IMG/VR virus record: IMGVR_UViG_3300035701_000002
Direction: 5' to 3' (one strand)
Length of the DNA: 11,397 nt
DNA from: a virus
A program made the translations under genes and the position numbers. Numbering within the stretch: the first letter of the stretch is position 1; each line of letters begins with the position of its first letter. Below are positions 2,386-11,397 of the stretch, one piece after another. Below the pieces are notes generated by a model. It had not been told where the DNA came from, searched no databases, and worked only from the letters and a program-made list of their open reading frames with translations.

Positions 2386-3564
2386 ATGATCGAAGGTCGG
2401 ATGAACTTCATACTCGACGCTTTCTGGGGCTCGAGCGGCAAGGGGAAGACGTCGACGTGGCTCGCGGACCACCACAACGTGACGAACGTCTCGAGCTCGA
2501 ACTATCCGAACGCGGGCCATACGGCGCAGTTCGAGGACGGGACGAAGTTCGTGGCCAAGGCGATTCCGACGGCGGCCGTCCTGCGCAAGACTCGCGGCCT
2601 CGGGATGAGGTGCTTCATCTCCCCGGGATCCGGCTTCTCGCCGAAGCAGCTCCTGAAGGAGTGGGAGGAATGCGGCAGGCCGGACATGTTCGTCCACGAC
2701 CGTGCCAGCCTCGTGACCGAGGAGCACGCGGCCAGGGAGCGCGAGGGGTCCGAGTCGACCAAGCACATCGCGTCGACGATGCAGGGGTCCGGAACCGCCA
2801 TCGCGGACAAGGTCATGAGGAAGGCGGACGTCCAGCTCGCCGGCCACAACAGCGCATGGCTCGACGTCATCGCGGCGATGAGGCCGGAATCGTCCGACGA
2901 GATCAGGCGGAGGATTCAGGTCGTCCCGGCCATGGAGTTCAGGAACTTCGTCCACGGCGCGATCCGGGAGGGGAAGACCTGGCTTCACGAGGGATCCCAG
3001 GGCTACGCCCTCTCCATCGACCACGGGTCGCATTATCCGCACTGCACGAGCAGGAACTGCACGATCCAGGCGGCGATGGACCACATGGCGATCCCTCCCT
3101 CCATGGTCGGAGACGTATACCTCAACCTCAGGACTCACCCGATCCGGGTCGGGAACGTCGTGGAGGACGGCAGGCAGACTGGCTTCTCCGGAGGTTTTTA
3201 TCCGGACTGCCGGGAGATGACCTGGGAGCAGGTCGCGGCGGAGTCGGGAATGCCTCCGGCCGAGGCCGCGGAGCTTGCGGAGCGCGAGCGGACGACCGTG
3301 ACCAAGAGGATCAGGCGCGTCTGCACGTTCTCGTTCGAGGGCCTCCGAGACGCGGTCCGCGTGAACGGGGCGACGAAGCTCGTGCTGAACTTCATCCAGT
3401 ACGTGTGCTGGGAGGACAAGGGCCTCAAGGGCGGACGAGAGGCTTTCGAGAGCCTGTCAAGAAAGAGCCGCGAGTTCATCGACAAGGTCGAACGTGAGGC
3501 GAACCTTCCGGTCGTCCTCATCGGGACCGGACCGAACCACAACGAGATGATCGTCAGGGGGTGA
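2386..3564 (+). CDS. Adenylosuccinate synthetase family protein (PurA/PurZ-like), 392 aa, with a non-canonical P-loop and non-canonical GTP-specificity motif
   Basis: Family motifs seen in the translation: the P-loop GSSGKGK (canonical PurA has GDEGKGK); an exact NAGHT (catalytic His) at nt 2509-2523; EGSQGYALSIDHGSHYPHCTSRN (PurA has [22 protein letters not shown]) at nt 2989-3057; TKLV where PurA has TKLD (nt 3373-3384); and a C-terminal LIGTGPNHNEMI (PurA has ISTGPDRTETMI). A GGAGGAG Shine-Dalgarno motif lies 5 nt upstream. The TGA stop overlaps the GTG start of the next gene. Confidence 0.85.
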   Translation: MIEGRMNFILDAFWGSSGKGKTSTWLADHHNVTNVSSSNYPNAGHTAQFEDGTKFVAKAIPTAAVLRKTRGLGMRCFISPGSGFSPKQLLKEWEECGRPDMFVHDRASLVTEEHAAREREGSESTKHIASTMQGSGTAIADKVMRKADVQLAGHNSAWLDVIAAMRPESSDEIRRRIQVVPAMEFRNFVHGAIREGKTWLHEGSQGYALSIDHGSHYPHCTSRNCTIQAAMDHMAIPPSMVGDVYLNLRTHPIRVGNVVEDGRQTGFSGGFYPDCREMTWEQVAAESGMPPAEAAELAERERTTVTKRIRRVCTFSFEGLRDAVRVNGATKLVLNFIQYVCWEDKGLKGGREAFESLSRKSREFIDKVEREANLPVVLIGTGPNHNEMIVRG

Positions 3565-4040
3565 CCGTGGGCGGGGAGAAGAGCAAGCTCGTCCGTTTCT
3601 ACGAAGGTTCCGGGACGGACCATGCCGGGAGGAGCCTCAGGCAGATCTTGGCCTGGTCCGACGGCAGGCTGGAGTCAGTCCATGACTACATCCAGTGGCT
3701 GTTCCCGAACAGAAAGCCGAGCGACTTCAACCCGCACGCCCCGATCGTGACGCAGGACGACTCTGACGAGTTCAGGAGAAGGCCAGAGCTCCAGGGAGCC
3801 CTGTCAATGTCCGCGGACCGCATGGAGGCGTTCTACGACCTCGGGAGCACGAAGCCGTGGTGGGTAACCCCGTCCAACCACAACTATCTGAGGATAACCA
3901 GGGTCCTTCTCTCGCTGAAGGACCTGGGCCTCGAAGCGAGAGCCCTGTCCCTGTTTGAAAAGCTCTCGGACGTGTACACGGTGAACGTGGACGTGATTCC
4001 GTCGAAGACTGTGGCCCTCTGGATAAGTGCGATAGGATGA
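3561..4040 (+). CDS. OGFr N-terminal conserved-domain (opioid growth factor receptor-like) family protein, 159 aa
   Basis: The GTG start overlaps the PurA-like stop (GTGA). The motifs HDYIQWLFP(N)...NPHAP and HNYLRITRVLLSLKDLGLE match the human OGFR conserved region as I recall it (HSYIQWLFPLREPGVNWHAKP; NNLRITRILKSLGELGLE). GC3 is high. Confidence 0.7.
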   Translation: MTVGGEKSKLVRFYEGSGTDHAGRSLRQILAWSDGRLESVHDYIQWLFPNRKPSDFNPHAPIVTQDDSDEFRRRPELQGALSMSADRMEAFYDLGSTKPWWVTPSNHNYLRITRVLLSLKDLGLEARALSLFEKLSDVYTVNVDVIPSKTVALWISAIG

Positions 4041-4159
4041 AGAACCTCGACAAAGAGCCGGGTTTCTGGCTGACCGTCATCATGCTCGTCCCGCTCATCA
4101 TCGCCGTGGAGATCTTGCTCTTGTTCGAGAAGCGAGCTGCGTCCGGGAAGGCCCCATGA
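4037..4159 (+). CDS. Small single-pass membrane peptide, 40 aa (MKNLDKEPGFWLTVIMLVPLIIAVEILLLFEKRAASGKAP)
   Basis: It is not in the ORF track because it is too short. Its ATG overlaps the OGFr-like stop (ATGA) and its TGA overlaps the next ATG (ATGA). It has a hydrophobic core helix and coding-like GC3. It is one link in a chain of coupled genes. Confidence 0.5.
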   Translation: MKNLDKEPGFWLTVIMLVPLIIAVEILLLFEKRAASGKAP

Positions 4160-4416
4160 GCAAGGCCGACGGCGTCCCCGAGGTCTTCGGAGAGGGGGAC
4201 GTGACCATAGTGATGAGCTCGACGGGGACGCGTCTCTACCTAGGGACGATCCTCGTCGGATGCCTGGAGAAGGTTGAGGCTTCCGCGGGCCCTGACGGGA
4301 TGAGCCCGTCGCTCACAGTCACGTTCCCGAAGAGCCACGAGACGGCCATGTCGACGACGATAGAGGAGAACGCGAGGGTCCTCAGGGCCGCGGGTTGGGT
4401 CAGGGTCCTTCAGTAG
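4156..4416 (+). CDS. Hypothetical protein, 86 aa; last gene of the coupled operon
   Basis: It is in the ORF track. The ATG overlaps the upstream stop. It ends with TAG and overlaps the 3' end of the convergent 4400..4975 gene by 17 nt. Confidence 0.5.
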   Translation: MSKADGVPEVFGEGDVTIVMSSTGTRLYLGTILVGCLEKVEASAGPDGMSPSLTVTFPKSHETAMSTTIEENARVLRAAGWVRVLQ

Positions 4417-4975
4417 GCGGGTCGGATCTCCTCTTCCTCTTCAGGTGAATTCCGACCTGGTCCGGGTTCTCGACCATGTACTTGTGGCAAGAGTGGAAGT
4501 AGTCCGGGATGGGGTGGGCGGCGTCCTTCATCATCAGGGACTCGAACACGGTCCGTCCTCCGGAGGCGCCCCACATCCAGTCCTCGTCGATGGGGACGTC
4601 CGGGGACCTCTGGCTCCAGACGTTCCCGTACGGGAACATGAGGAGTATGAACTCTTTTTTGGAGAAGTGCGGGTTCGGCATGGGCACGAACTCCTCCTTC
4701 CTCTTGATCGACAGGAACACGCCGGGCGGCAGGACGACGCCCTCGGGGGTCGAGGTTACCCATCTCTTGATGGACATCCACTTAACCTCCGGCGTCTTGA
4801 CCCCGGTCTTCTTCCGGCAGGAAAGCGAGCAGTTGTAGAGCGCCGACGGAGAAAGGCCGCAAGTCCACGGACTGAAGTCGTCCGGGACTCCCCGGAAGAC
4901 ATGCATGGACCTGAAGAACGGTATCTTGATGGCCTCAACGGCCTGCTGTACTTTCTCAAGAACTTCTTTATCCAT
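4400..4975 (-). CDS. Hypothetical protein, 192 aa (Lys-rich; unknown function), divergent from the ThyX-like gene
   Basis: The ORF track extends to 5062, but the first ATG with an upstream GGAG is at 4973-4975 (MDKEVLEKVQQAVEAIK...). GC3 is high over the body. I recognise no domain. Confidence 0.6.
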   Translation of the reverse strand: MDKEVLEKVQQAVEAIKIPFFRSMHVFRGVPDDFSPWTCGLSPSALYNCSLSCRKKTGVKTPEVKWMSIKRWVTSTPEGVVLPPGVFLSIKRKEEFVPMPNPHFSKKEFILLMFPYGNVWSQRSPDVPIDEDWMWGASGGRTVFESLMMKDAAHPIPDYFHSCHKYMVENPDQVGIHLKRKRRSDPPTEGP

Positions 4976-4990: not shown

Positions 4991-6325
4991 ATGGCAGATA
5001 CAAAGGTGGACGTGTTTTGCTTGACCGACGGCCTCGGTCAGGTTCTTCACCCTGCAGTGCAAGCTACTGTACTGGCGAAGTACTCGAGATCCCCGATGTC
5101 GGCGAGGGACATCGTCTCAGGCCTGACCCTCGAGGAGGCGGACAGGTTCCAGGACAAGTGGGTCGTCGGATACGGCCACTCGAGCGTGGCGGAGCTCGCC
5201 ACGATACCCCTCTGCTTCGAGGGGGTGTCTATCGTCGCGTCCAAATTCCTGGAGTCATGGCAGAGGCCAGGGTACTCGGAGAAAAGCACGAGGTACCAGG
5301 CTTTCTCCCGGGACTCGTTCGTGAGCCCTCCGGGAGCCCCGAGCACCATGAAGCACTTCGCCTCCAGGCTGTACGACGCCTACGAGAGCCTCCTTCCGAA
5401 GGTCTCCGCGATCGTCGCAGCGAAAACGGGCAAGGACAAGGACGACAGGACCGTGAAGGCCCGGGCGTTCGACAACGTCCGGTATCTTCTTCCGGCCGGT
5501 ACGGGGACGAACCTCGCATGGGTGGGGAACGCAAGGGACGTTCGGTACATGATCTCCTCCGCACTCGGATCGACGAACCCCGAGTTCAGGGCCATCGGGG
5601 AGGCCGCGTCGAAGGCCGTGTCCGAGCTATGTCCGGTGTTCGTGCGGGACGCCGAGCCGGACTCGTTCGAGCCTACGATTCGCTCTCTGGGGAAGACAAG
5701 TCCGAAGTTCGACTACAGGAATCCAAGCTGGTACGTGGACGTACACAGGCCGCACCTGATGCCATCCCCCGATCTCGTACAGAAGTCGTTCGAGTCCTCC
5801 TTGGCCGACATGTACGGGATGAGCTGGACGGCGTTCTGCAAGCACATGGACTCCCGGGGAAAAAGGGCGGTCCCCAGAATCTTCAGGACAGCACGGATCG
5901 CGTTCGACGTCATGATGGACTACGGGGCGTACCGCGATCTCCAGAGGCACCGCCGGTGCGAGCAGTACCCGGAGCCGCTGGCGGCCGGATACGGATATCT
6001 GGTCCCGGACGACATACTCGGGACAGACCTCGAGGCCGAGTATCGGGCTGCCATGGACTCAGTCCTGGCGTACGAGGACGAGACCGTCGTCCACGACGAA
6101 GACCTCATGCAGTACATGATACCCCTCGGATACCTCCACAGGTCGGTCTTCGAGATGGACCTGGCCGAGCTGTACTACCTGTCCGAACTGAGGACTCAGC
6201 CTCAGGGACACATATCGTACAGAAGGGTCGCGTACGGGATGTACTCCGAGGCGTCCGCACTGATCCCCGGCCTGATGCGATGGTGTCGCGCTATTCGTCC
6301 GGACGAGATAGGCGAGCACCGGTGA
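4991..6325 (+). CDS. Tandem (two-domain) ThyX-like flavin-dependent thymidylate synthase family protein, about 444 aa, with complementary degeneration of the catalytic motifs in the two halves
   Basis: The start ATG at 4991 is preceded by GGGAGAG. The N-terminus (KVDVF...LAKYSRS) resembles a ThyX N-terminus. The N-terminal half has GHSSVAEL (ThyX HxSVxEH-like, nt 5174-5197), SEKSTRY (the ThyX SxRY motif, nt 5285-5296) and NARDVRY (ThyX NxRxLxHF-like, nt 5528-5548), but it has SWQ where RHR is expected. The C-terminal half has ...YRDLQRHRR (the RHR motif, nt 5945-5956) and LRTQPQGHISYRRVA (ThyX C-terminal LR...H..EIR..A-like, nt 6188-6229), but it lacks SxRY. The ORF-track entry 4445..6325 is the same frame with a spurious 5' extension antisense to the 192-aa gene. 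Confidence 0.75.
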   Translation: MADTKVDVFCLTDGLGQVLHPAVQATVLAKYSRSPMSARDIVSGLTLEEADRFQDKWVVGYGHSSVAELATIPLCFEGVSIVASKFLESWQRPGYSEKSTRYQAFSRDSFVSPPGAPSTMKHFASRLYDAYESLLPKVSAIVAAKTGKDKDDRTVKARAFDNVRYLLPAGTGTNLAWVGNARDVRYMISSALGSTNPEFRAIGEAASKAVSELCPVFVRDAEPDSFEPTIRSLGKTSPKFDYRNPSWYVDVHRPHLMPSPDLVQKSFESSLADMYGMSWTAFCKHMDSRGKRAVPRIFRTARIAFDVMMDYGAYRDLQRHRRCEQYPEPLAAGYGYLVPDDILGTDLEAEYRAAMDSVLAYEDETVVHDEDLMQYMIPLGYLHRSVFEMDLAELYYLSELRTQPQGHISYRRVAYGMYSEASALIPGLMRWCRAIRPDEIGEHR

Positions 6326-6528
6326 AGGAGGACCTGGCGACGAGGACGGCCCTTCTTCCGCCGGAGAAGAGGGACGAGATCCGCAACTCCCTCAGGACCG
6401 AGATGTCCTCGATGAGGGTGAAAAACCTTCGGAACACCATCTCGAAGCTCCTTCCGAAGCTCAGCAAGATGGGCCTCAGCGGGGGCGAGATCCTGTCGGA
6501 GGCCGAGAAGTTCCTGTCTCGGTCATGA
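6322..6528 (+). CDS. Small hypothetical protein, about 68 aa (VKEDLATRTALLPPEKRDEIRNSL...), translationally coupled to the ThyX-like gene
   Basis: The GTG at 6322-6324 overlaps the ThyX-like TGA (GTGA). The product is a Lys/Leu-rich helical-looking sequence with coding-like GC3. It corresponds to the last 69 codons of the otherwise spurious track ORF 5017..6528. Confidence 0.4.
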   Translation: MKEDLATRTALLPPEKRDEIRNSLRTEMSSMRVKNLRNTISKLLPKLSKMGLSGGEILSEAEKFLSRS

Positions 6529-6870
6529 CGGGGACTTCGGGTACATAACGTCAATCTGCCACGGGACGGTTTCGCGCTCATGGAGGACGGGCGGTGCGAA
6601 GATCTTCACGATCTCGTATATGACGTTCCCTGAGTCCTCGTCCAGGGTCGGCACCTCCGCGAGCGTGAGGCACGGGCCGGACGCCGACGCCGACCGGGAA
6701 TCTTCGGACAAGATTCCGGGGTCCACGGGGGTCCTCCCATATCCGCCGACGAGAGAGCATAGAGCTTTCTTATTGACGGAGTAAAGGAGAGGACTAGATC
6801 CCTTTCTAGGACAAGAAGAAGCAACCCGGCATTTCGTACACTCCATCTGAAGGTATCTGACTTGACCCAT
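6523..6870 (-). CDS. Hypothetical protein, up to 115 aa; the true start may be further downstream
   Basis: It is the only candidate ORF in 6529-6920. The C-terminal two-thirds has high GC3. The first roughly 45 codons (which carry a CxxC...C motif) have atypically low GC3 and lie in a lower-GC island, so an internal GTG or TTG start is plausible. Confidence 0.35.
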   Translation of the reverse strand: MGQVRYLQMECTKCRVASSCPRKGSSPLLYSVNKKALCSLVGGYGRTPVDPGILSEDSRSASASGPCLTLAEVPTLDEDSGNVIYEIVKIFAPPVLHERETVPWQIDVMYPKSPS

Positions 6871-6920
6871 GATGGACGCTACCGAGATGGACCGGGCGTT
6901 GACGTATAGACGGAAGGAAC

Positions 6921-7823
6921 ATGTCCCTTAAGAACGCGGCCGAAACTGAGACCATGAGAGATACGGGCAAAGGGCTTCCGGAGAAGGGGTTCTTCGAGCT
7001 CGACCTCATGTCAAGCAAGATCATGTGGATGAACGAGTTCTCCCTGACGAAGGTAGGGATGAACCTCGAGCAAGCACAGTCCATGACCGTCTACGACGTG
7101 GTCCCGGAGGAGTTCCACGACTCTCTGAGCAGCTTCATCTCCGACGCTTCGAGCGGGAGGACGTCCAAGTTCTACATCTGGCCGTTCCGATCCTCGGACA
7201 TGAGCGTCACGTGGTGGTACTTCGCCCGGTTCAAGTCGGACCACCCGACCCACTGGTTCAAGGCCGAGTTCCTGAACAAGACCGGGAAGTCGGGCCCAGA
7301 GTATTCGTCCATGCTGGCGGCCATGAACACGGCGAACAGCTACAACGACCTGTACAACAAGCTCTCGGACTTCCAGCTGTTCACCAAGTCGAACATCGAC
7401 TCCATCAACGAGAAGGTCCAGGAGCTGAAGGATGAGCAGGCCGTCTTGAAGGAGCAGATCGTGGGGGCGACGTCGGCGGCTAACAGGGCGGCGAACGCGG
7501 CCATCGACGTCTCGTCCGCCATGAGGAACTTCAAGACGGACGTCCAGGAGCAGTTCTCGAAACAGACGGTGGAGATCCTGCGCCTAATCAGCACGGACGC
7601 CGTCCACGACCAGCGGCTCGTGGCGTTCGAGAAGCACATACAGAAGACGACGGACAACGCGGTCCGCGTCATAACGGTCCAGGCGGACAAGGCAGGACAG
7701 ATCATCACGACGCAGGCGGACAAGGCCGGAAAGAGCCTGTCGAGGAAGGTCACGATCCCGATAGGCGCAATCGCGGCGGTAATGACGATCTTGCAGTGGA
7801 TCATCACGCACTGGCCCAAGTGA
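6921..7823 (+). CDS. PAS-like N-terminal domain, central coiled-coil and C-terminal transmembrane anchor protein, 300 aa
   Basis: A GGAAGGA Shine-Dalgarno-like motif lies 4 nt upstream of the ATG. The PAS-like segment is GFFELDL...YIWPFRSSDMSVTWWYFARF. The middle of the protein is rich in heptad-like Q/E/K/A residues. An imperfect tandem peptide repeat TVQADKAGQII/TTQADKAGKSL is present (the 14-nt direct repeat caggcggacaaggc occurs twice, within 7680-7730). The C-terminal hydrophobic helix is IPIGAIAAVMTILQWIITHW. Confidence 0.6.
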   Translation: MSLKNAAETETMRDTGKGLPEKGFFELDLMSSKIMWMNEFSLTKVGMNLEQAQSMTVYDVVPEEFHDSLSSFISDASSGRTSKFYIWPFRSSDMSVTWWYFARFKSDHPTHWFKAEFLNKTGKSGPEYSSMLAAMNTANSYNDLYNKLSDFQLFTKSNIDSINEKVQELKDEQAVLKEQIVGATSAANRAANAAIDVSSAMRNFKTDVQEQFSKQTVEILRLISTDAVHDQRLVAFEKHIQKTTDNAVRVITVQADKAGQIITTQADKAGKSLSRKVTIPIGAIAAVMTILQWIITHWPK

Positions 7824-7848
7824 CGCTCGAGGTCAGTAAAGTTCGCGA

Positions 7849-8322
7849 ATGGGCTCAAGCGACCCGCCTGACGGCGAAATCAGCATAGAGATACCGCTCC
7901 CTCCGGGGACGGCCTCCTCGGGGCCGCCGGGAGGGAAGGATCACGGGCGCCTGAAGGCCTGGACGAACTTCATCGCCACCGCCGCAGCCCTGCTGGTCGC
8001 AGCAGCGGCGATACTGAAGCCACAGGACCACTCGACGGCCAGAGCCTCGTACGACGAGCTCAAGAAGGCTGTGGACGAGAACTCGCAGAACGACCGAAGG
8101 AACCACGAGGACCTCGTGGCCCTCAGGAACTACATGGACGGCTACCTGAAGGGGGCGGGGGCTGCGACGTCGCTCCCGTCGTCCATGCCGGTACCGTCGA
8201 CGTCCGGCTCAGCCAGGGCTATCCCCCCAGCTCCGGTCGCCACCATGCCTCCCCTCCCGGTACTCCATCCGGAGCCGAAGCCCCACAACCTTCCAGACTT
8301 CGACGCGGTGATGAAGAAATGA
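7849..8322 (+). CDS. Single-pass membrane protein with a Pro-rich C-terminal tail, 157 aa
   Basis: It is in the ORF track. The TM segment is WTNFIATAAALLVAAAAIL. The C-terminal region is Pro/Ser/Ala-rich. Its TGA overlaps the ATG of the downstream peptidase (ATGA). Confidence 0.55.
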   Translation: MGSSDPPDGEISIEIPLPPGTASSGPPGGKDHGRLKAWTNFIATAAALLVAAAAILKPQDHSTARASYDELKKAVDENSQNDRRNHEDLVALRNYMDGYLKGAGAATSLPSSMPVPSTSGSARAIPPAPVATMPPLPVLHPEPKPHNLPDFDAVMKK

Positions 8323-9260
8323 ACCTTCAAGGACTGACCGTCAACGGATACAGGGAAGCTCCGCAGGCCCTCTCGGACACCCACCCGAAGTTCGGGCTCG
8401 TCAGGGACGCGATGAGGGGGAGCGTCGACACGTACTACGAGGGCCAGTCCTCAGACCTGCGCGGCCTTTCCCCGAAGCGGCACAACCAGCTTCGCTCGAG
8501 CTCGTGCGTGGCCCAGTCGGTCGTGAGGGCGGCGGAGGTCAAGAGGATCCACAAGCTCTTCCTCACAGCGCAGGGGAGGGGGCTGGACATAGCGGCCGCC
8601 CTAGCCGAGGCTCAGGCCGGGCACGTCGCGCTCTCGAGGCTCGCCCTGTACTACCTGGCGAGGGAGATCATGGACCCCCCGGAGACGAGCCTGGACGAGG
8701 GGACGTACGTCTCGATGGCGGCCGAAGCCCTGAAGTCCTTCGGGGTCTGCAGGGAGGAAAAAAGCGCCACGAACCCGGCGGACCGAGCGTTCTGGCCGTT
8801 CGACCTGGGGACAGTCCCGGCTTCCGGCCGGGAGAGGATCTTCGAGTCCCCGACGTGGGCTGTCATGAGGGAAGCCTACCTCCACAAGATTCACGCCTGG
8901 TACAGGCTCGAGACCACCGGCGACGACCGCGTGAGGGACGTAATCCTCGCGCTTGCGGCGGGCAACCCCGTCGTCTACGGGACTCAGGTCGACGGGCAGT
9001 GGCAGACGTACGACGGTTCCGTCCCGCTCGGGACTCTGAAGAGCCGCGTCCTCGGAGGGCACGCGACCGTGCTCGAGGGATGGGAGCCGGGGAGGCAGCT
9101 CTTCCTCGGAGAGAACTCGTGGGGCGAGGACTGGGGCCTGACGGGGCCCGACGGGACCGGAGGGTTCTATGAGATCACTCCGGAGAAGATCGCCAGCAGC
9201 GAGTCGAACGACTTCGTGGTGATCGAGGGCGGCTGGGAACCGTGGAGGAAGGCGGCATGA
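8319..9260 (+). CDS. Papain-like (C1 family) cysteine peptidase, 313 aa, with no signal peptide
   Basis: The motif Q-x5-C in HNQLRSSSCVAQS matches the papain Gln19/Cys25 spacing. GGHATVLEGWE is like the papain His motif. GENSWGEDWGLTG...GFYEI matches the C1 hallmark NSWGxxWGxxGY. The first roughly 60 residues could be a prodomain. Confidence 0.75.
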   Translation: MNLQGLTVNGYREAPQALSDTHPKFGLVRDAMRGSVDTYYEGQSSDLRGLSPKRHNQLRSSSCVAQSVVRAAEVKRIHKLFLTAQGRGLDIAAALAEAQAGHVALSRLALYYLAREIMDPPETSLDEGTYVSMAAEALKSFGVCREEKSATNPADRAFWPFDLGTVPASGRERIFESPTWAVMREAYLHKIHAWYRLETTGDDRVRDVILALAAGNPVVYGTQVDGQWQTYDGSVPLGTLKSRVLGGHATVLEGWEPGRQLFLGENSWGEDWGLTGPDGTGGFYEITPEKIASSESNDFVVIEGGWEPWRKAA

Positions 9261-9571
9261 GGTCTCTGAGAAGTTTTTTTGCCGTCCTGTTGGTCGGCGT
9301 CGCGATCTCATCCGGATGTGGGCCGAAGAAGCCGGTCGTGCACGTCCCGACGGACACGGCGGACTGCCCGTCGGCATGCAAGCACCTCCGCGGGGAGGAC
9401 GGCTCAGGACTGAGCTGCGACGAGGGCAAGCCCCTCCCGGACGGGACCACATGCGAGAAGTTCTGTGCGGACACCCAGAACTCCGGACACGCTCTGGTTC
9501 CGAGCTGCGTGATGAAGGTCACACAGTGCTCGGACATGGACCACGTGGAAGACTTCTGCCCGAAGAAGTGA
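9257..9571 (+). CDS. Small Cys-rich secreted lipoprotein, about 104 aa (9 Cys; mature part about 85 aa with 8 Cys)
   Basis: The ATG at 9257 overlaps the peptidase TGA (ATGA). A GGAGGAAGG Shine-Dalgarno motif lies 4-12 nt upstream. The signal peptide MRSLRSFFAVLLVGVAISSG-C carries a lipobox-like SSGC. The Cys count suggests four disulfides. The track ORF 9242..9571 is the same frame with two extra N-terminal codons. Confidence 0.6.
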   Translation: MRSLRSFFAVLLVGVAISSGCGPKKPVVHVPTDTADCPSACKHLRGEDGSGLSCDEGKPLPDGTTCEKFCADTQNSGHALVPSCVMKVTQCSDMDHVEDFCPKK

Positions 9572-9581
9572 GACGGGCCTG

Positions 9582-9806
9582 ATGTTGGAGGACGTCCGGT
9601 GCGGCCTCCACAGCGGGATACCTGCGTGCTGCATAGCGTGGTACCTGGGCCCATGGAGGCTCGTGGGGTACGGAAGAGCTCCGCGCATCAGGCGGACGTA
9701 CTTCGAGCTGCTCGACGGCTTCGGGCACATCGCATGCCCCCTGTGCTTTCTGAAGGGCAGGGTTGTCGAAGTCAGAGAGTGCGATTGCCATTCCGCCGGG
9801 CTGTAA
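9582..9806 (+). CDS. Small Cys-rich (zinc-ribbon-like) protein, 74 aa
   Basis: It is in the ORF track. The Cys pattern is C-x8-CC ... CxxC ... CxC (8 Cys and 3 His in 74 aa). It ends with TAA 8 nt before the next gene. Confidence 0.4.
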   Translation: MLEDVRCGLHSGIPACCIAWYLGPWRLVGYGRAPRIRRTYFELLDGFGHIACPLCFLKGRVVEVRECDCHSAGL

Positions 9807-9814
9807 GCTCGAGG

Positions 9815-10429
9815 ATGGAACAGACAGACCTGATAGCGCTCATCGACCTGGACGGGACCGTGGCGGACTACGACTCCGCACTGATTGAGTCCATGAGGGC
9901 CATCCAGTCGCCGGACGAAACCCCGTACAAGAACCGGTACGAGGACGGCGGCGCAAGGGAGGAGATACCTCACGTTGAGGCCCGAAGGAGGCTCATCCAG
10001 AGGCAGCCTGGCTTTTGGAGGAACCTGAAGCCGCTGCCGGCAGGGTTCGAGGTGGTGGACGAGCTCAGGTCTCTCGGATTCTCGCTGCACGTCCTGACGA
10101 AGGGACCCGTCTCCACGCCCGTGGCGTGGAGCGAGAAGGTCGAATGGTGCCAGCGCCATCTCGAGGACGCCGTAGTGACGGTCACCGGCGACAAGAGCCT
10201 GGTGTACGGGCGTATACTCGTGGACGACTTCCCGCCGTACTTCACGAAGTGGCTGACCGTGAGGCCGCGCGGGCTCGTGGTGTGCATTGCCCACCCGTGG
10301 AACGCGGGGTATGCGAAGGGCGAGAAGCAGGAGCACCCGAACGTGCTCAGGTACGACGGGACGAACCGGGATGAGCTCAGGGCCAGGGTGCAGCGCGCGT
10401 ACGAGAGGACCGCGGGCGGGGGATTGTAG
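9815..10429 (+). CDS. HAD-superfamily 5'(3')-deoxyribonucleotidase-like hydrolase, about 204 aa
   Basis: The N-terminal LIDLDGTVADYD is HAD motif I (DxDGT), as in NT5C-type nucleotidases (DMDGVLADF). The second acidic motif is near the C-terminus (GRILVDDFP). The true start is the internal ATG at 9815 within the track ORF 9599..10429. GC3 is high. Confidence 0.7.
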   Translation: MEQTDLIALIDLDGTVADYDSALIESMRAIQSPDETPYKNRYEDGGAREEIPHVEARRRLIQRQPGFWRNLKPLPAGFEVVDELRSLGFSLHVLTKGPVSTPVAWSEKVEWCQRHLEDAVVTVTGDKSLVYGRILVDDFPPYFTKWLTVRPRGLVVCIAHPWNAGYAKGEKQEHPNVLRYDGTNRDELRARVQRAYERTAGGGL

Positions 10430-10441
10430 ACCTGAGCTGCA

Positions 10442-10470
10442 AACGTTAGGCTTTCCTTGAGCCTTTCGTT
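10442..10470 (+). terminator. Candidate weak intrinsic terminator or stem-loop after the HAD gene
   Basis: The imperfect inverted repeat aacgttaggct-ttccttg-agcctttcgtt has 9 of 11 positions pairing and is followed by a T-rich tttcgttcg. It lies 13 nt after the HAD stop. The structure is marginal. Confidence 0.25.
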
Positions 10471-10472
10471 CG

Positions 10473-10628
10473 ATGCAGAACGAGTCCATCACGGTAGTCG
10501 TTCCGGCTCCTGCTTTCGTCACGTCGGACGTAACGGCCAAGCCGCACCAGACAATCCTGTGCGACTCGTCCTCCGGGACCCCGTTCAACATAACGTTGCC
10601 GAACGCGGCAGTGTGGCAGGGGGCGTAG
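10473..10628 (+). CDS. 51-codon ORF (MQNESITVVVPAPAFVTSDVTAKPHQTILCDSSSGTPFNITLPNAAVWQGA) ending at an in-frame TAG, in the same frame as the downstream fiber-like gene
   Basis: It is not in the ORF track because it is short. GC3 is very high. The Thr/Val/Ser/Ala/Pro-rich composition matches the downstream repeat protein. It could be the N-terminus of that protein interrupted by TAG, or a separate small gene. Confidence 0.4.
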   Translation: MQNESITVVVPAPAFVTSDVTAKPHQTILCDSSSGTPFNITLPNAAVWQGA

Positions 10629-10643
10629 GTCGTAGTCAAGGTA

Positions 10644-11397
10644 GTGGCTAGCGGTGCGAACCTGACAGTCCTGGCCCAAGGTGGGACGGTCGAGGGAGCG
10701 GCGAGCTTTATCATTCGTATCCAGAGTCAGCTGTGCTCCTACACGTTCCAGAGCGACGGAGTGTCGAACTGGGACCTGACGCAGAAAATAGCCCCTGTCA
10801 AGAGCGGGACGCAGAACTACTCGGTCATTGTCGGCGGAGAGAGTGGAAACACCGCCACAAACGTCAGCTCGGTGGTCGTCGGAGGCTTCAACAACACATC
10901 CAGTGGGTCGAGCTCCGGGACTCTGTGCTCACAGGGGTCGACGGCCAGCGGGACGAGGAGCGTGACTCTTGGGGGGAACGCATGCACGGCGTCAGGGACG
11001 GATGGAGTGTGCATCGGGGGTTCCGGGACGCTCGCGTCAGCCTCAAACACGCTCGCCACCGGCGGAGGGCATGCGACAGCTCAGGACGCCCTCGCCATAG
11101 GACGGGGCACCGTCGCATCCGCACTCTTCTCACTAGCCATCGGAAGGGACGCTCAGGCCACCGTCCAAAGTCAGACGGCCATAGGGGTCGGGACAGACCA
11201 ATACGGAGATCCGAACGCCCGTAACTGGCTTGTCCAGTCGGGAGAGTCCGTCGGAGGGGCGTCGGGGGACATGGACTTCGACTTCGCCGTAAACGGAAAG
11301 ACATACGCCCTGTGCATAACCGTATTGGGGAGCCGGCAGGACGCGCAAGGGTGCAACGTGCGAACGTTCACCGGCTTGATCCACGGTTCCGGCGGAT
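10644..11397 (+). CDS. Gly/Ser/Thr/Ala-rich repeat protein (phage tail fiber / adhesin-head-like), 3'-partial, running off the right edge
   Basis: The frame is open from 10629 to the window end with no stop. The first start-like codon is GTG at 10644. The product has repeats such as SVIVGGESGNTATNVSSVVVGGFNNTSSG..., VTLGGNACTASGTDGVCIGGSGTLASASNTLATGGGHATAQDALAIGRGTVAS and LAIGRDAQATVQSQTAIGVGT. These are reminiscent of fiber or trimeric-adhesin head repeats. The edge-truncated ORF is not in the ORF track. Confidence 0.55.
   Translation, partial: MASGANLTVLAQGGTVEGAASFIIRIQSQLCSYTFQSDGVSNWDLTQKIAPVKSGTQNYSVIVGGESGNTATNVSSVVVGGFNNTSSGSSSGTLCSQGSTASGTRSVTLGGNACTASGTDGVCIGGSGTLASASNTLATGGGHATAQDALAIGRGTVASALFSLAIGRDAQATVQSQTAIGVGTDQYGDPNARNWLVQSGESVGGASGDMDFDFAVNGKTYALCITVLGSRQDAQGCNVRTFTGLIHGSGG

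What the first reader, a model, noticed from the sequence alone, without database searches (positions are those of the whole stretch)
7849..9571. Coupled trio: Pro-rich single-TM protein, cytoplasmic papain-like C1 peptidase, then 8-Cys secreted lipoprotein
Three consecutive genes are linked by ATGA overlaps. The middle one carries the C1 peptidase hallmarks (Q-x5-C, the H motif, NSWGxxWG) but has no signal peptide, whereas its downstream neighbour is a small lipoprotein with 8 Cys in the mature part. C1 peptidases are uncommon in phage or prokaryotic accessory regions. The arrangement suggests a functional unit. Options include a maturation protease with a membrane anchor, a protease with a disulfide-rich inhibitor, or an exported effector with an immunity-like partner. 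Small phage lipoproteins encoded near receptor-binding genes are also known to mediate superinfection exclusion, and a fiber-like gene lies about 1 kb downstream.
Basis: partly seen in the sequence, partly recalled or inferred. Interest (0 to 1): 0.55.

Follow-up and report, generated by a model that had tools for sequence, protein, structure and literature searches.

The report
Phage papain-type protease with partner lipoprotein
An uncultured phage carries a papain-type protease made inside the cell, coupled to a small exported disulfide-rich lipoprotein of unknown fold; the pair recurs in nearly every related phage, so it is probably an unstudied two-protein unit acting on the bacterial envelope.

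Summary
Three co-directional genes with ATGA overlaps are present: g1 7849-8322, peptidase 8319-9260 and lipoprotein 9257-9571.

- **Lipoprotein.** It has a lipobox and 8 mature Cys, 7 of them invariant. Its family has about 1,200 clusters, no Pfam or PHROG entry, and no match to known folds.
- **Linkage.** The conserved unit is the pair, not the trio. Peptidase then lipoprotein occurs in 31 of 32 non-redundant loci, at 33-70% GC and down to about 25% peptidase identity. The two proteins co-diverge (Mantel r 0.81). The TM/Pro-rich g1 accompanies the pair in only 5 lineages.
- **Neighbours.** They are often envelope or lysis genes: PG_binding_1 endolysin-like proteins, a lysozyme-like gene, a holin-like gene, and once a chagasin-family inhibitor lipoprotein.

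Best reading, inferred at about 0.4: the protease reaches the envelope only when the membrane is breached or it is delivered, and the lipoprotein is its periplasmic binding partner, most likely a cognate inhibitor. This resembles T6SS effector/immunity pairs or T4 gp5/Spackle. Binding, substrate and timing are untested.

The parts
7849..8322 (+). g1: bitopic membrane protein of 157 aa. It has an N-terminal cytoplasmic tail, a TM at residues 38-56 (nt 7960-8016), a conserved periplasmic helix (SYxELKxAVExN...NHxDIVALRNYLDGY), a variable Pro/Ser-rich linker and a conserved C-terminal motif LPDFDxVMKK. It is an accessory, lineage-restricted member of the module.
   Evidence: ORF and ATGA overlap. 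Hydropathy and Pro content. Homologues next to the peptidase in 5 lineages only: window, L029, L012, L007 and L052. No Pfam, PHROG, NCBIfam or PADLOC match.
8319..9260 (+). Xylellain-type C1A (papain-family) cysteine peptidase of 313 aa, with no signal peptide. The N-terminal ~45-residue extension is modelled at high confidence and is ordered. Catalytic residues: Gln57, Cys63 (nt 8505-8507), His248 (nt 9060-9062) and Asn266 (nt 9114-9116). Only 2 Cys, so none of the structural disulfides of secreted papains.
9257..9571 (+). Small exported lipoprotein of 104 aa. Signal peptide nt 9257-9316, lipobox ISSGC with lipid-attached Cys21 at nt 9317-9319, and a mature 83-residue domain with 8 Cys (4 putative disulfides). 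It is the constant partner of the peptidase.
   Evidence: ATGA overlap and RBS. C37, C41, C54, C66, C70, C84 and C91 invariant, C21 nearly so, in 23 homologues. 1,178 family representatives, all small stand-alone proteins; of the best 150, 123 have a lipobox and the modal count is 9 Cys. AF2 pLDDT 80.6 with three short helices. No fold or sequence match. Found downstream of the peptidase in 31 of 32 non-redundant loci.

Best explanation
This is a self-contained two-gene module of uncultured, mostly jumbo, tailed phages.

Shown or read directly from sequence:
- The peptidase is an apparently catalytically competent xylellain-type C1A cysteine protease. It is made and folded in the cytoplasm: no export signal and no structural disulfides.
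- The translationally coupled downstream gene puts a small four-disulfide domain on a lipid anchor in the periplasm.

Inferred:
- The two proteins sit in different compartments while the cell is intact. They can only meet when the protease gains access to the envelope, either through holin or membrane lesions at lysis, or by delivery from outside.
- The lipoprotein is then the protease's dedicated periplasmic binding partner. It is most likely a cognate tight-binding inhibitor or immunity protein that limits when and where the protease acts on envelope proteins or peptides.
- This is the logic of T6SS cysteine-peptidase effector/immunity pairs and of T4 gp5 lysozyme/Spackle.
- In the window's sub-lineage, g1 is an extra envelope component. 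It is an inner-membrane-anchored, periplasm-reaching protein with a conserved C-terminal motif.

Binding, inhibition, the substrate and the timing are all untested.
For: 1. Obligate linkage. Peptidase then lipoprotein, on the same strand and usually overlapping or less than 25 nt apart, occurs in 28 of 29 non-redundant peptidase-bearing loci spanning 33-70% GC (the window counted apart). It also occurs in the four loci added later: L048, L050, L052 and L053. The search worked in both directions, seeded by peptidase and by lipoprotein.
2. Co-divergence. Mantel r = 0.81, with 0 of 2000 permutations reaching it, while the flanking genes vary.
3. Opposite compartment signatures. The peptidase has no hydrophobic N-terminus and only 2 Cys. 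The lipoprotein has a lipobox and 8 conserved Cys.
5. A bona fide C1-inhibitor family protein (chagasin I42, E 2e-22) carrying its own lipoprotein signal sits directly upstream of the peptidase in L041. At least one phage therefore places a C1 inhibitor in the periplasm next to this enzyme.
6. Envelope and lysis neighbours: PG_binding_1 endolysin-like proteins near 8 loci, directly downstream in L011; a lysozyme-like endolysin with a TM directly upstream in L043; and in L050 the order holin-like (phrog_6918), TM/Pro-rich protein, peptidase, lipoprotein, right after the tail genes.
7. Precedents with the same topology: T4 Spackle/gp5 (PMC7677548) and T6SS endopeptidase/periplasmic immunity pairs (PMC3852654).
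Against: - No direct evidence of binding or inhibition. No complex prediction could be run.
- The lipoprotein resembles no known inhibitor family or fold.
- If it is already an inhibitor, the extra chagasin-type lipoprotein in L041 looks redundant.
- A stoichiometric inhibitor in the same cell would seem to defeat a lysis enzyme, so the biological pay-off is unclear. It could be protection against premature action, against enzyme from other virions, or something else.
- In the window the pair sits in a run of closely spaced same-strand genes with nucleotide-metabolism genes (NT5C, ThyX, PurZ), not in an obvious lysis or virion cassette.
- Linked genes co-diverge for trivial reasons too, so the Mantel result is weak on its own.
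Confidence: 0.4

Rival explanations
1. Lysis cassette. The C1 peptidase is a holin-dependent lytic enzyme: an endolysin-like endopeptidase, or a cutter of tethers between outer membrane and cell wall. g1 acts as an i-spanin-like inner-membrane protein and the lipoprotein as an o-spanin-like outer-membrane partner that completes envelope disruption.
For: - g1 has type-II topology with a periplasmic helix and a Pro-rich C-terminus carrying a conserved end motif.
- The lipoprotein is short and has a lipobox.
- L050 shows the order holin-like, TM/Pro-rich protein, peptidase, lipoprotein after the tail genes.
- Endolysin-like genes abut the pair in L043 and L011.
- Signal-less lytic enzymes that wait for a holin are the rule for canonical endolysins (general knowledge).
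Against: - A g1-like partner is absent from about 27 of 32 lineages within 4-6 kb or more of flanking DNA, or up to the contig end. Spanin genes are normally adjacent, overlapping or embedded (general knowledge), not split by another gene.
- The lipoprotein is a conserved, folded four-disulfide helical domain, unlike the short, Pro-rich, poorly structured and fast-evolving o-spanins.
- Its constant partner is the peptidase, not a TM protein.
- No C1A enzyme is known to cleave peptidoglycan.
Confidence: 0.2
2. Adaptor or activator. The lipoprotein does not inhibit the peptidase. Instead it recruits, positions or activates it at the outer membrane, for example by displacing the N-terminal segment. 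This is how outer-membrane lipoproteins partner periplasmic proteases and hydrolases in bacteria (NlpI-Prc/MepS, LbcA-CtpA, from general knowledge).
For: - Same linkage and compartment evidence as the main model.
- The L052 lipoprotein carries a ~45-residue Pro/Thr spacer between lipid anchor and Cys domain, as expected for a reach-out tether.
- A separate chagasin-type inhibitor in L041 makes more sense if the 8-Cys protein is not itself the inhibitor.
- The peptidase aligns best with zymogen forms and has an ordered N-terminal extension. In xylellain the N-terminal segment is reported to block the active site (Leite et al. 2013, recalled from memory, not read here).
Against: - Known adaptor lipoproteins are large TPR-type proteins, whereas small disulfide-rich domains are classically inhibitors.
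Confidence: 0.15
3. Two independent functions that merely travel together. The peptidase works in the cytoplasm, in host takeover, protein turnover or processing of phage proteins. The lipoprotein is a superinfection-exclusion or receptor-masking protein like T5 Llp.
For: - In the window the pair lies among early-type nucleotide-metabolism genes.
- Other protein-turnover genes occur nearby elsewhere: ClpP lies between the two genes in L034, and peptide deformylase is present in L007 and L020.
- Small phage lipoproteins are known exclusion factors (PMC9586334).
Against: - Independent genes would not stay adjacent, co-oriented and usually start/stop-overlapped across 33-70% GC genomes and otherwise unrelated neighbourhoods, down to about 25% identity.
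- No lipoprotein-family locus with readable upstream DNA lacked the peptidase.
Confidence: 0.15
4. Head or virion maturation protease held at the membrane by g1 (one of the first reader's options).
For: Only the adjacency of a TM protein and a protease. Ig-like (Big_3_5) proteins lie upstream in 5 loci, and tail genes lie upstream in L050.
Against: - No portal, scaffold or capsid genes are next to it in any locus.
- g1 is missing in most lineages.
- The known prohead proteases of tailed phages that I am aware of belong to other families (general knowledge).
- This model leaves the constant lipoprotein unexplained.
Confidence: 0.03

Closest known systems
Xylellain (Xylella fastidiosa, PDB 3OIS) and other short bacterial C1A peptidases
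   Different: The gene is phage-encoded and, unlike anything reported for xylellain, invariably followed by an 8-Cys lipoprotein gene. Whether the N-terminal block and nucleotide regulation described for xylellain apply here was not tested.
T6SS cysteine-peptidase effector / periplasmic immunity pairs (Tae-Tai, Ssp-Rap; PMC3852654)
   Same: A signal-less papain-superfamily cysteine hydrolase encoded next to a small exported, often disulfide-stabilised or lipid-anchored protein. The two meet only in the periplasm.
   Different: No T6SS is involved and the element is a phage. The enzyme is C1A, not NlpC/P60-like. The partner shares no sequence or fold with Tai or Rap proteins. Inhibition is not shown.
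T4 Spackle / gp5 lysozyme (PMC7677548)
   Same: A phage-encoded small periplasmic protein that forms a stoichiometric complex with, and inhibits, a lytic enzyme of the phage itself. This would be the closest phage precedent for the proposed logic.
   Different: There the target is a lysozyme carried on the tail spike and the genes are not adjacent. Here the enzyme is a protease of unknown location in the life cycle, and the genes are translationally coupled.
Spanins (lambda Rz/Rz1 type)
   Same: An inner-membrane type-II protein (g1) and a small outer-membrane lipoprotein, encoded close together near lysis-type genes in some relatives.
   Different: The two genes are separated by the peptidase. 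g1 is absent in most lineages. The lipoprotein is a conserved, folded four-disulfide domain rather than a short Pro-rich peptide.
Chagasin/ICP (MEROPS I42) and thyropin-type inhibitors of C1 peptidases
   Same: Proteins dedicated to blocking papain-family enzymes. A lipoprotein-form I42 member sits beside the peptidase in L041. Thyropins are small disulfide-rich domains (general knowledge).
   Different: The 8-Cys lipoprotein has no detectable sequence or fold similarity to either.

Membership tests
Peptidase family C1A (papain family) | Match to the Pfam Peptidase_C1 model above the gathering threshold | tested here: met
   23.9 bits against a gathering score of 20.7, E 5.2e-5, but only residues 204-276 are covered. 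The family profile hits 180 PDB C1 enzymes, and most homologues carry PF00112.
Peptidase family C1A (papain family) | Catalytic Cys and His, plus the oxyanion-hole Gln and the orienting Asn, in the canonical order and motifs | tested here: met
   Q57, C63, H248 and N266 are invariant in 38 diverse homologues. They are also present in the most distant pair partner, L050.
Peptidase family C1A (papain family) | Papain two-lobe fold | tested here: met
Peptidase family C1A (papain family) | Proteolytic activity sensitive to E-64-type inhibitors | not testable with these tools
   Needs an enzyme assay.
Xylellain-type short C1A | No signal peptide, no I29 propeptide, and a short N-terminal segment that occludes the active site | tested here: inconclusive
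   The absence of a signal and of a long propeptide is shown, and the N-terminal 45 residues are ordered.
Known C1-peptidase inhibitor families (cystatin I25, chagasin I42, thyropin I31, staphostatin I57, propeptide-like I29) | Sequence or fold match of the lipoprotein to one of these families | tested here: not met
o-spanin (Rz1-like) | Lipoprotein signal with a lipobox Cys and a short mature chain | tested here: met
   ISSGC lipobox and 83 mature residues.
o-spanin (Rz1-like) | Gene adjacent to, overlapping or embedded in a cognate i-spanin gene | tested here: not met
   It is separated from g1 by the peptidase gene. No g1-like gene is present in most lineages.
o-spanin (Rz1-like) | Pro-rich mature region with little secondary structure | tested here: not met
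   7.7% Pro overall (8 Pro in the mature chain), three helices, four conserved Cys pairs and pLDDT 80.6.
i-spanin (Rz-like), for g1 | N-terminal TM with type-II topology and a periplasmic helical domain whose C-terminus meets the o-spanin | tested here: inconclusive
   The TM at 38-56, preceded by basic residues, is followed by a conserved helix, a Pro-rich linker and a conserved C-terminal motif. The interaction cannot be tested, and g1 is present in only 5 lineages.
Effector/immunity-type pair (working analogy, not a homology family) | A signal-less hydrolase plus an adjacent exported small protein, co-inherited | tested here: met
Effector/immunity-type pair (working analogy, not a homology family) | Direct 1:1 binding that blocks the active site and protects the producer | not testable with these tools
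   Structure-prediction jobs were exhausted and a two-chain query cannot be submitted. Biochemistry is needed.

The most novel reading that the evidence does not exclude
The 8-Cys lipoprotein founds a new, widespread family (about 1,200 clusters at 50% identity) of periplasmic cysteine-protease inhibitors or immunity proteins with a new fold. Together with its xylellain-type C1A protease it would form a phage effector/immunity system acting on the bacterial envelope, for example a proteolytic route to envelope breaching at lysis or entry, with built-in self-protection or superinfection exclusion.
Probability: 0.3. Interest if true: 0.8.

Novelty: new variant of a known kind. Interest (0 to 1): 0.62.

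Why it matters
- **Scale.** A protein family of more than a thousand clusters has no annotation, and a phage protease has no assigned role. Yet the two are locked together across phages whose hosts probably range from low to high GC.
- **If the lipoprotein inhibits the protease.** It would be a new structural class of papain-family inhibitor. It would also be a phage counterpart of bacterial effector/immunity pairs.
- **If the pair works in lysis or entry.** It would add a proteolytic step to envelope breaching. Current models explain this by holins, endolysins, spanins and disruptins, or by tail lysins.
- **Annotation.** Either way, the pair is a simple diagnostic marker for this group of uncultured, mostly jumbo phages, and it gives a reason to annotate both genes.
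- **Inteins.** The inteins found in the protease are further evidence that the enzyme matters to the phage.

Tried and rejected
- **Cultured and annotated genomes.** tblastn of the peptidase and of the lipoprotein against 50,697 deposited phage genomes gave one weak uncultured hit and none, respectively. No cultured model phage is available. A scan of 185,579 species genomes gave one hit, a MAG contig, so there is no prophage or host assignment.
- **Trio as the conserved unit.** Rejected, because g1 occurs in only 5 lineages.
- **Promoter and terminator scan of 6300-11397.** Uninformative: 0 promoter-like sites, and terminator-like sites near the shuffle expectation.
- **Technical failures.** The first alignment, A2, was too diverse for a locus scan. 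Two distant lipoproteins gave no viral-contig hits.
- **PG_binding_1 neighbour.** Its N-terminal domain could not be assigned, since only the PG-binding domain matches. It is not related to the TM protein of L052.
- **Literature.** Searches for chagasin in phages, or for papain-like enzymes with phage lipoproteins, found nothing on this pair. The xylellain structure paper is not held.
Full report
**1. What is in the window**

Positions 7849-9571 hold three co-directional ORFs:
- g1, 7849-8322, 157 aa
- a peptidase, 8319-9260, 313 aa
- a small protein, 9257-9571, 104 aa from its ATG

Both junctions are ATGA start/stop overlaps. A GGAGGA lies 8 nt upstream of the third gene's ATG. The window is 62% GC, so long spurious ORFs overlap these genes on other frames. 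The three genes are validated by protein-level conservation in relatives (below).

The window matches the 67-kb metagenomic contig L001 at all but 22 positions. That contig carries phage-type nucleotide-metabolism genes: PurZ-like adenylosuccinate synthetase, ThyX, two NT5C genes and QueC.

**2. The peptidase**

- Pfam Peptidase_C1 is passed (23.9 bits against a gathering score of 20.7), though only over residues 204-276. PHROGs gives phrog_16701 'peptidase'.
- In an alignment of 38 homologues down to about 31% identity, Gln57, Cys63, His248 and Asn266 are invariant, as are the surrounding motifs.
- The AlphaFold2 model is very confident (pLDDT 93.5, pTM 0.92).

The protein has no hydrophobic N-terminus and only two cysteines. 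It thus lacks the structural disulfides of secreted papains, as expected for an enzyme folded in the cytoplasm. The first ~45 residues are ordered in the model. A phylogenomic survey already noted that xylellain-type C1A genes were acquired by Myoviridae and Siphoviridae (PMC10380794). It assigned no function and mentioned no partner.

**3. The lipoprotein**

- The third gene encodes a signal peptide ending in the lipobox ISSGC, followed by 83 further residues with 8 Cys.
- In 23 homologues, C37, C41, C54, C66, C70, C84 and C91 are invariant. So are E56-G57 and G77-H78, and a PTDT-like motif precedes the first Cys (P31 invariant, D33 nearly so).
- An exhaustive profile search finds 1,178 representatives (50%-identity clusters) at E<=1e-3 and 195 at E<=1e-10. 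The best 150 are all stand-alone proteins of mostly 85-155 aa. Of those 150, 123 have a lipobox, and the modal Cys count is nine.
- The family has no Pfam, NCBIfam or PHROG model and no PDB sequence relative.

It is therefore an unannotated family of apparently new fold.

**4. Linkage**

This is the main result.

- Loci seeded with the peptidase all carry the lipoprotein gene downstream on the same strand.
- Loci seeded with the lipoprotein all carry the peptidase upstream wherever upstream DNA exists.
- After removing near-duplicates, 28 of 29 non-redundant peptidase loci besides the window have the pair. The exception is L042, a distant C1 gene in a 595-kb phage.
- The pair also holds for:
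  - the most distant peptidase homologues (29-33% identity; L043, L045, L052, L053)
  - a distant lipoprotein branch (L050, peptidase E 1e-32)
  - an insert-bearing lipoprotein branch (L048 and L049)
- Genomes range from 33 to 70% GC. Contigs run from short fragments up to 402 kb, and many are of jumbo-phage size. Flanking genes differ widely.
- The gap between the two genes is usually under 25 nt or an overlap. In a few loci other genes intervene: a ClpP gene in L034, a lectin-like gene in L016 and a small ORF in L020.
- Pairwise identities of the two proteins are strongly correlated (Mantel r 0.81, 0 of 2000 permutations), so partners are not swapped.

g1 behaves differently. Its homologues accompany the pair only in five lineages (window, L029, L012, L007 and L052), in L052 on the opposite strand. 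The conserved unit is a pair, with g1 as a lineage-restricted accessory.

**5. Context clues**

Among 129 neighbouring ORFs, the recurrent families are:
- DNA methylases (16)
- PG_binding_1 proteins (8)
- Ig-like Big_3_5 proteins (5)
- NT5C (4)

The PG_binding_1 proteins are orthologous across 33% and 62% GC phages. They hit endolysin PHROGs only through their C-terminal PG-binding domain. In L011 this gene directly follows the lipoprotein.

Three loci are especially informative:
- **L043.** The gene overlapping the peptidase start is a lysozyme-like endolysin (phrog_7 at 5e-6, plus a weak Phage_lysozyme hit). It has a Pro-rich linker and a C-terminal TM.
- **L050.** The order is tail genes, a holin-like protein (phrog_6918, 6e-4), a TM/Pro-rich protein, the peptidase, the lipoprotein, then replication genes.
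- **L041.** The gene directly upstream of the peptidase is a chagasin-family (Inhibitor_I42, E 2e-22) protein with its own lipoprotein signal. This is a known type of C1-peptidase inhibitor, placed in the periplasm.

Two homologues carry inteins in the peptidase:
- one with a LAGLIDADG domain right after ENSWG (L020)
- one inserted exactly before the catalytic Cys (L049; GS|CFSGDT...VHN|CVGN)

This is typical of conserved, selected active-site motifs.

**6. Interpretation**

Shown:
- The C1A enzyme is apparently active and cytoplasmically made.
- The lipoprotein is exported and disulfide-rich.
- The two are linked almost without exception and co-diverge.
- Envelope and lysis genes are frequent neighbours.

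Inferred: because the proteins sit in different compartments in an intact cell, they can only act together once the protease reaches the envelope. That could happen through holin or membrane lesions at lysis, or by delivery with virions.

The topology is that of T6SS cysteine-peptidase effector/immunity pairs (PMC3852654) and of T4 gp5/Spackle (PMC7677548). Small, stable disulfide-rich domains are classic protease inhibitors. I therefore favour, at about 0.4, the reading that the lipoprotein is the protease's cognate periplasmic inhibitor or immunity-type partner.

Rivals:
- a lysis cassette in which g1 and the lipoprotein are spanin-like and the protease is the lytic enzyme (0.2)
- an outer-membrane adaptor or activator role for the lipoprotein (0.15)
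- independent functions that merely co-travel (0.15)
- a membrane-anchored maturation protease (0.03)

Points against my preferred model:
- There are no binding data.
- The chagasin lipoprotein in L041 looks redundant.
- It is unclear what a stoichiometric inhibitor gains the phage.
- In the window, the pair sits within a run of same-strand nucleotide-metabolism genes.

**7. Comparison and novelty**

The peptidase is a new member of a known family (xylellain-type C1A). The lipoprotein family is undescribed. The conserved protease-lipoprotein module has, as far as the searched libraries and literature show, not been reported. I class the finding as a new variant of a known kind, namely an enzyme plus a compartment-separated partner. 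The lipoprotein may prove to be a new inhibitor class.

**8. Limits**

- No cultured phage carries the pair, and no host can be assigned.
- No complex prediction was possible.

Noticed in passing
window 2386-3564 and 3561-4040 (also L004:4768-6481): A PurZ-like adenylosuccinate synthetase (phrog_1211 '2-aminooxy adenylosuccinate synthetase', E 1e-60; Pfam Adenylsucc_synt) is followed, with a start/stop overlap, by a gene with an OGFr_N domain (E 1.5e-13). The same pair is present in L004. Together with ThyX (4991-6325), two NT5C genes and a QueC gene 7 kb downstream in L001, this suggests a phage with modified bases, possibly a 2-aminoadenine genome. The OGFr_N partner is not one of the usual PurZ companions I know of.
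   Followed up: partly
L049:1646-3670 and L020:5986-7911 (peptidase homologues): Two independent intein-like insertions occur in the C1 peptidase. In L049 a ~390-aa element sits exactly before the catalytic Cys (…GS|CFSGDT…VHN|CVGN…). In L020 a ~378-aa element with a LAGLIDADG_3 domain sits right after ENSWG. I am not aware of inteins reported in papain-family peptidases.
   Followed up: partly
L041:5437-5874: A chagasin-family (Inhibitor_I42, E 2e-22) protein with a lipoprotein signal (LSTGC) is encoded directly upstream of the peptidase-lipoprotein pair. The contig was binned as Methylococcaceae.
   Followed up: partly
window 10473-11397 (L001:12155-13252): The Gly/Ser/Thr-rich 'fibre-like' gene has a weak, sub-threshold YadA_head hit. 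In the window it has an in-frame stop at 10626-10628, where L001 has Ser. The window differs from L001 at 22 positions in all. This could be a nonsense polymorphism, an assembly error or a pseudogene.
   Followed up: partly
L034:3894-4526: A ClpP protease gene (E 2e-29) is inserted between the C1 peptidase and its lipoprotein. Peptide deformylase genes lie next to the pair in L007 and L020.
   Followed up: no
L052:5783-6214: This lipoprotein homologue has a ~45-residue Pro/Thr-rich spacer between the lipid anchor and the Cys-rich domain, long enough to reach well away from the membrane. A g1 homologue lies upstream on the opposite strand (4091-4585). A TM plus Pro/Thr-linker protein lies downstream (6215-7018).
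   Followed up: partly
L001:14223-15332, L011:7130-8164 and 6 other loci: A conserved ~345-380 aa protein has a C-terminal PG_binding_1 domain and an unassigned N-terminal domain (motif ATEGG…NMYDxCxLTxGxIQxCE). It is 35% identical between a 33% GC and a 62% GC phage, and is probably the endolysin of these phages with an undescribed catalytic domain.
   Followed up: partly
window 6921-7823: A 300-aa protein has an N-terminal globular part, a long coiled coil and a C-terminal TM (tail-anchored). It is conserved in L004 (with about 130 extra N-terminal residues as annotated, 428 aa), in L029 (opposite strand) and in L011 (3 kb upstream). It has no family assignment.
   Followed up: partly
window 9582-9806: A 74-aa Cys-rich ORF (CC…CPLC…CDC, zinc-finger-like) lies 10 nt after the lipoprotein gene. 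It was found only in the nearest relatives (L001-L003 and L027).
   Followed up: partly
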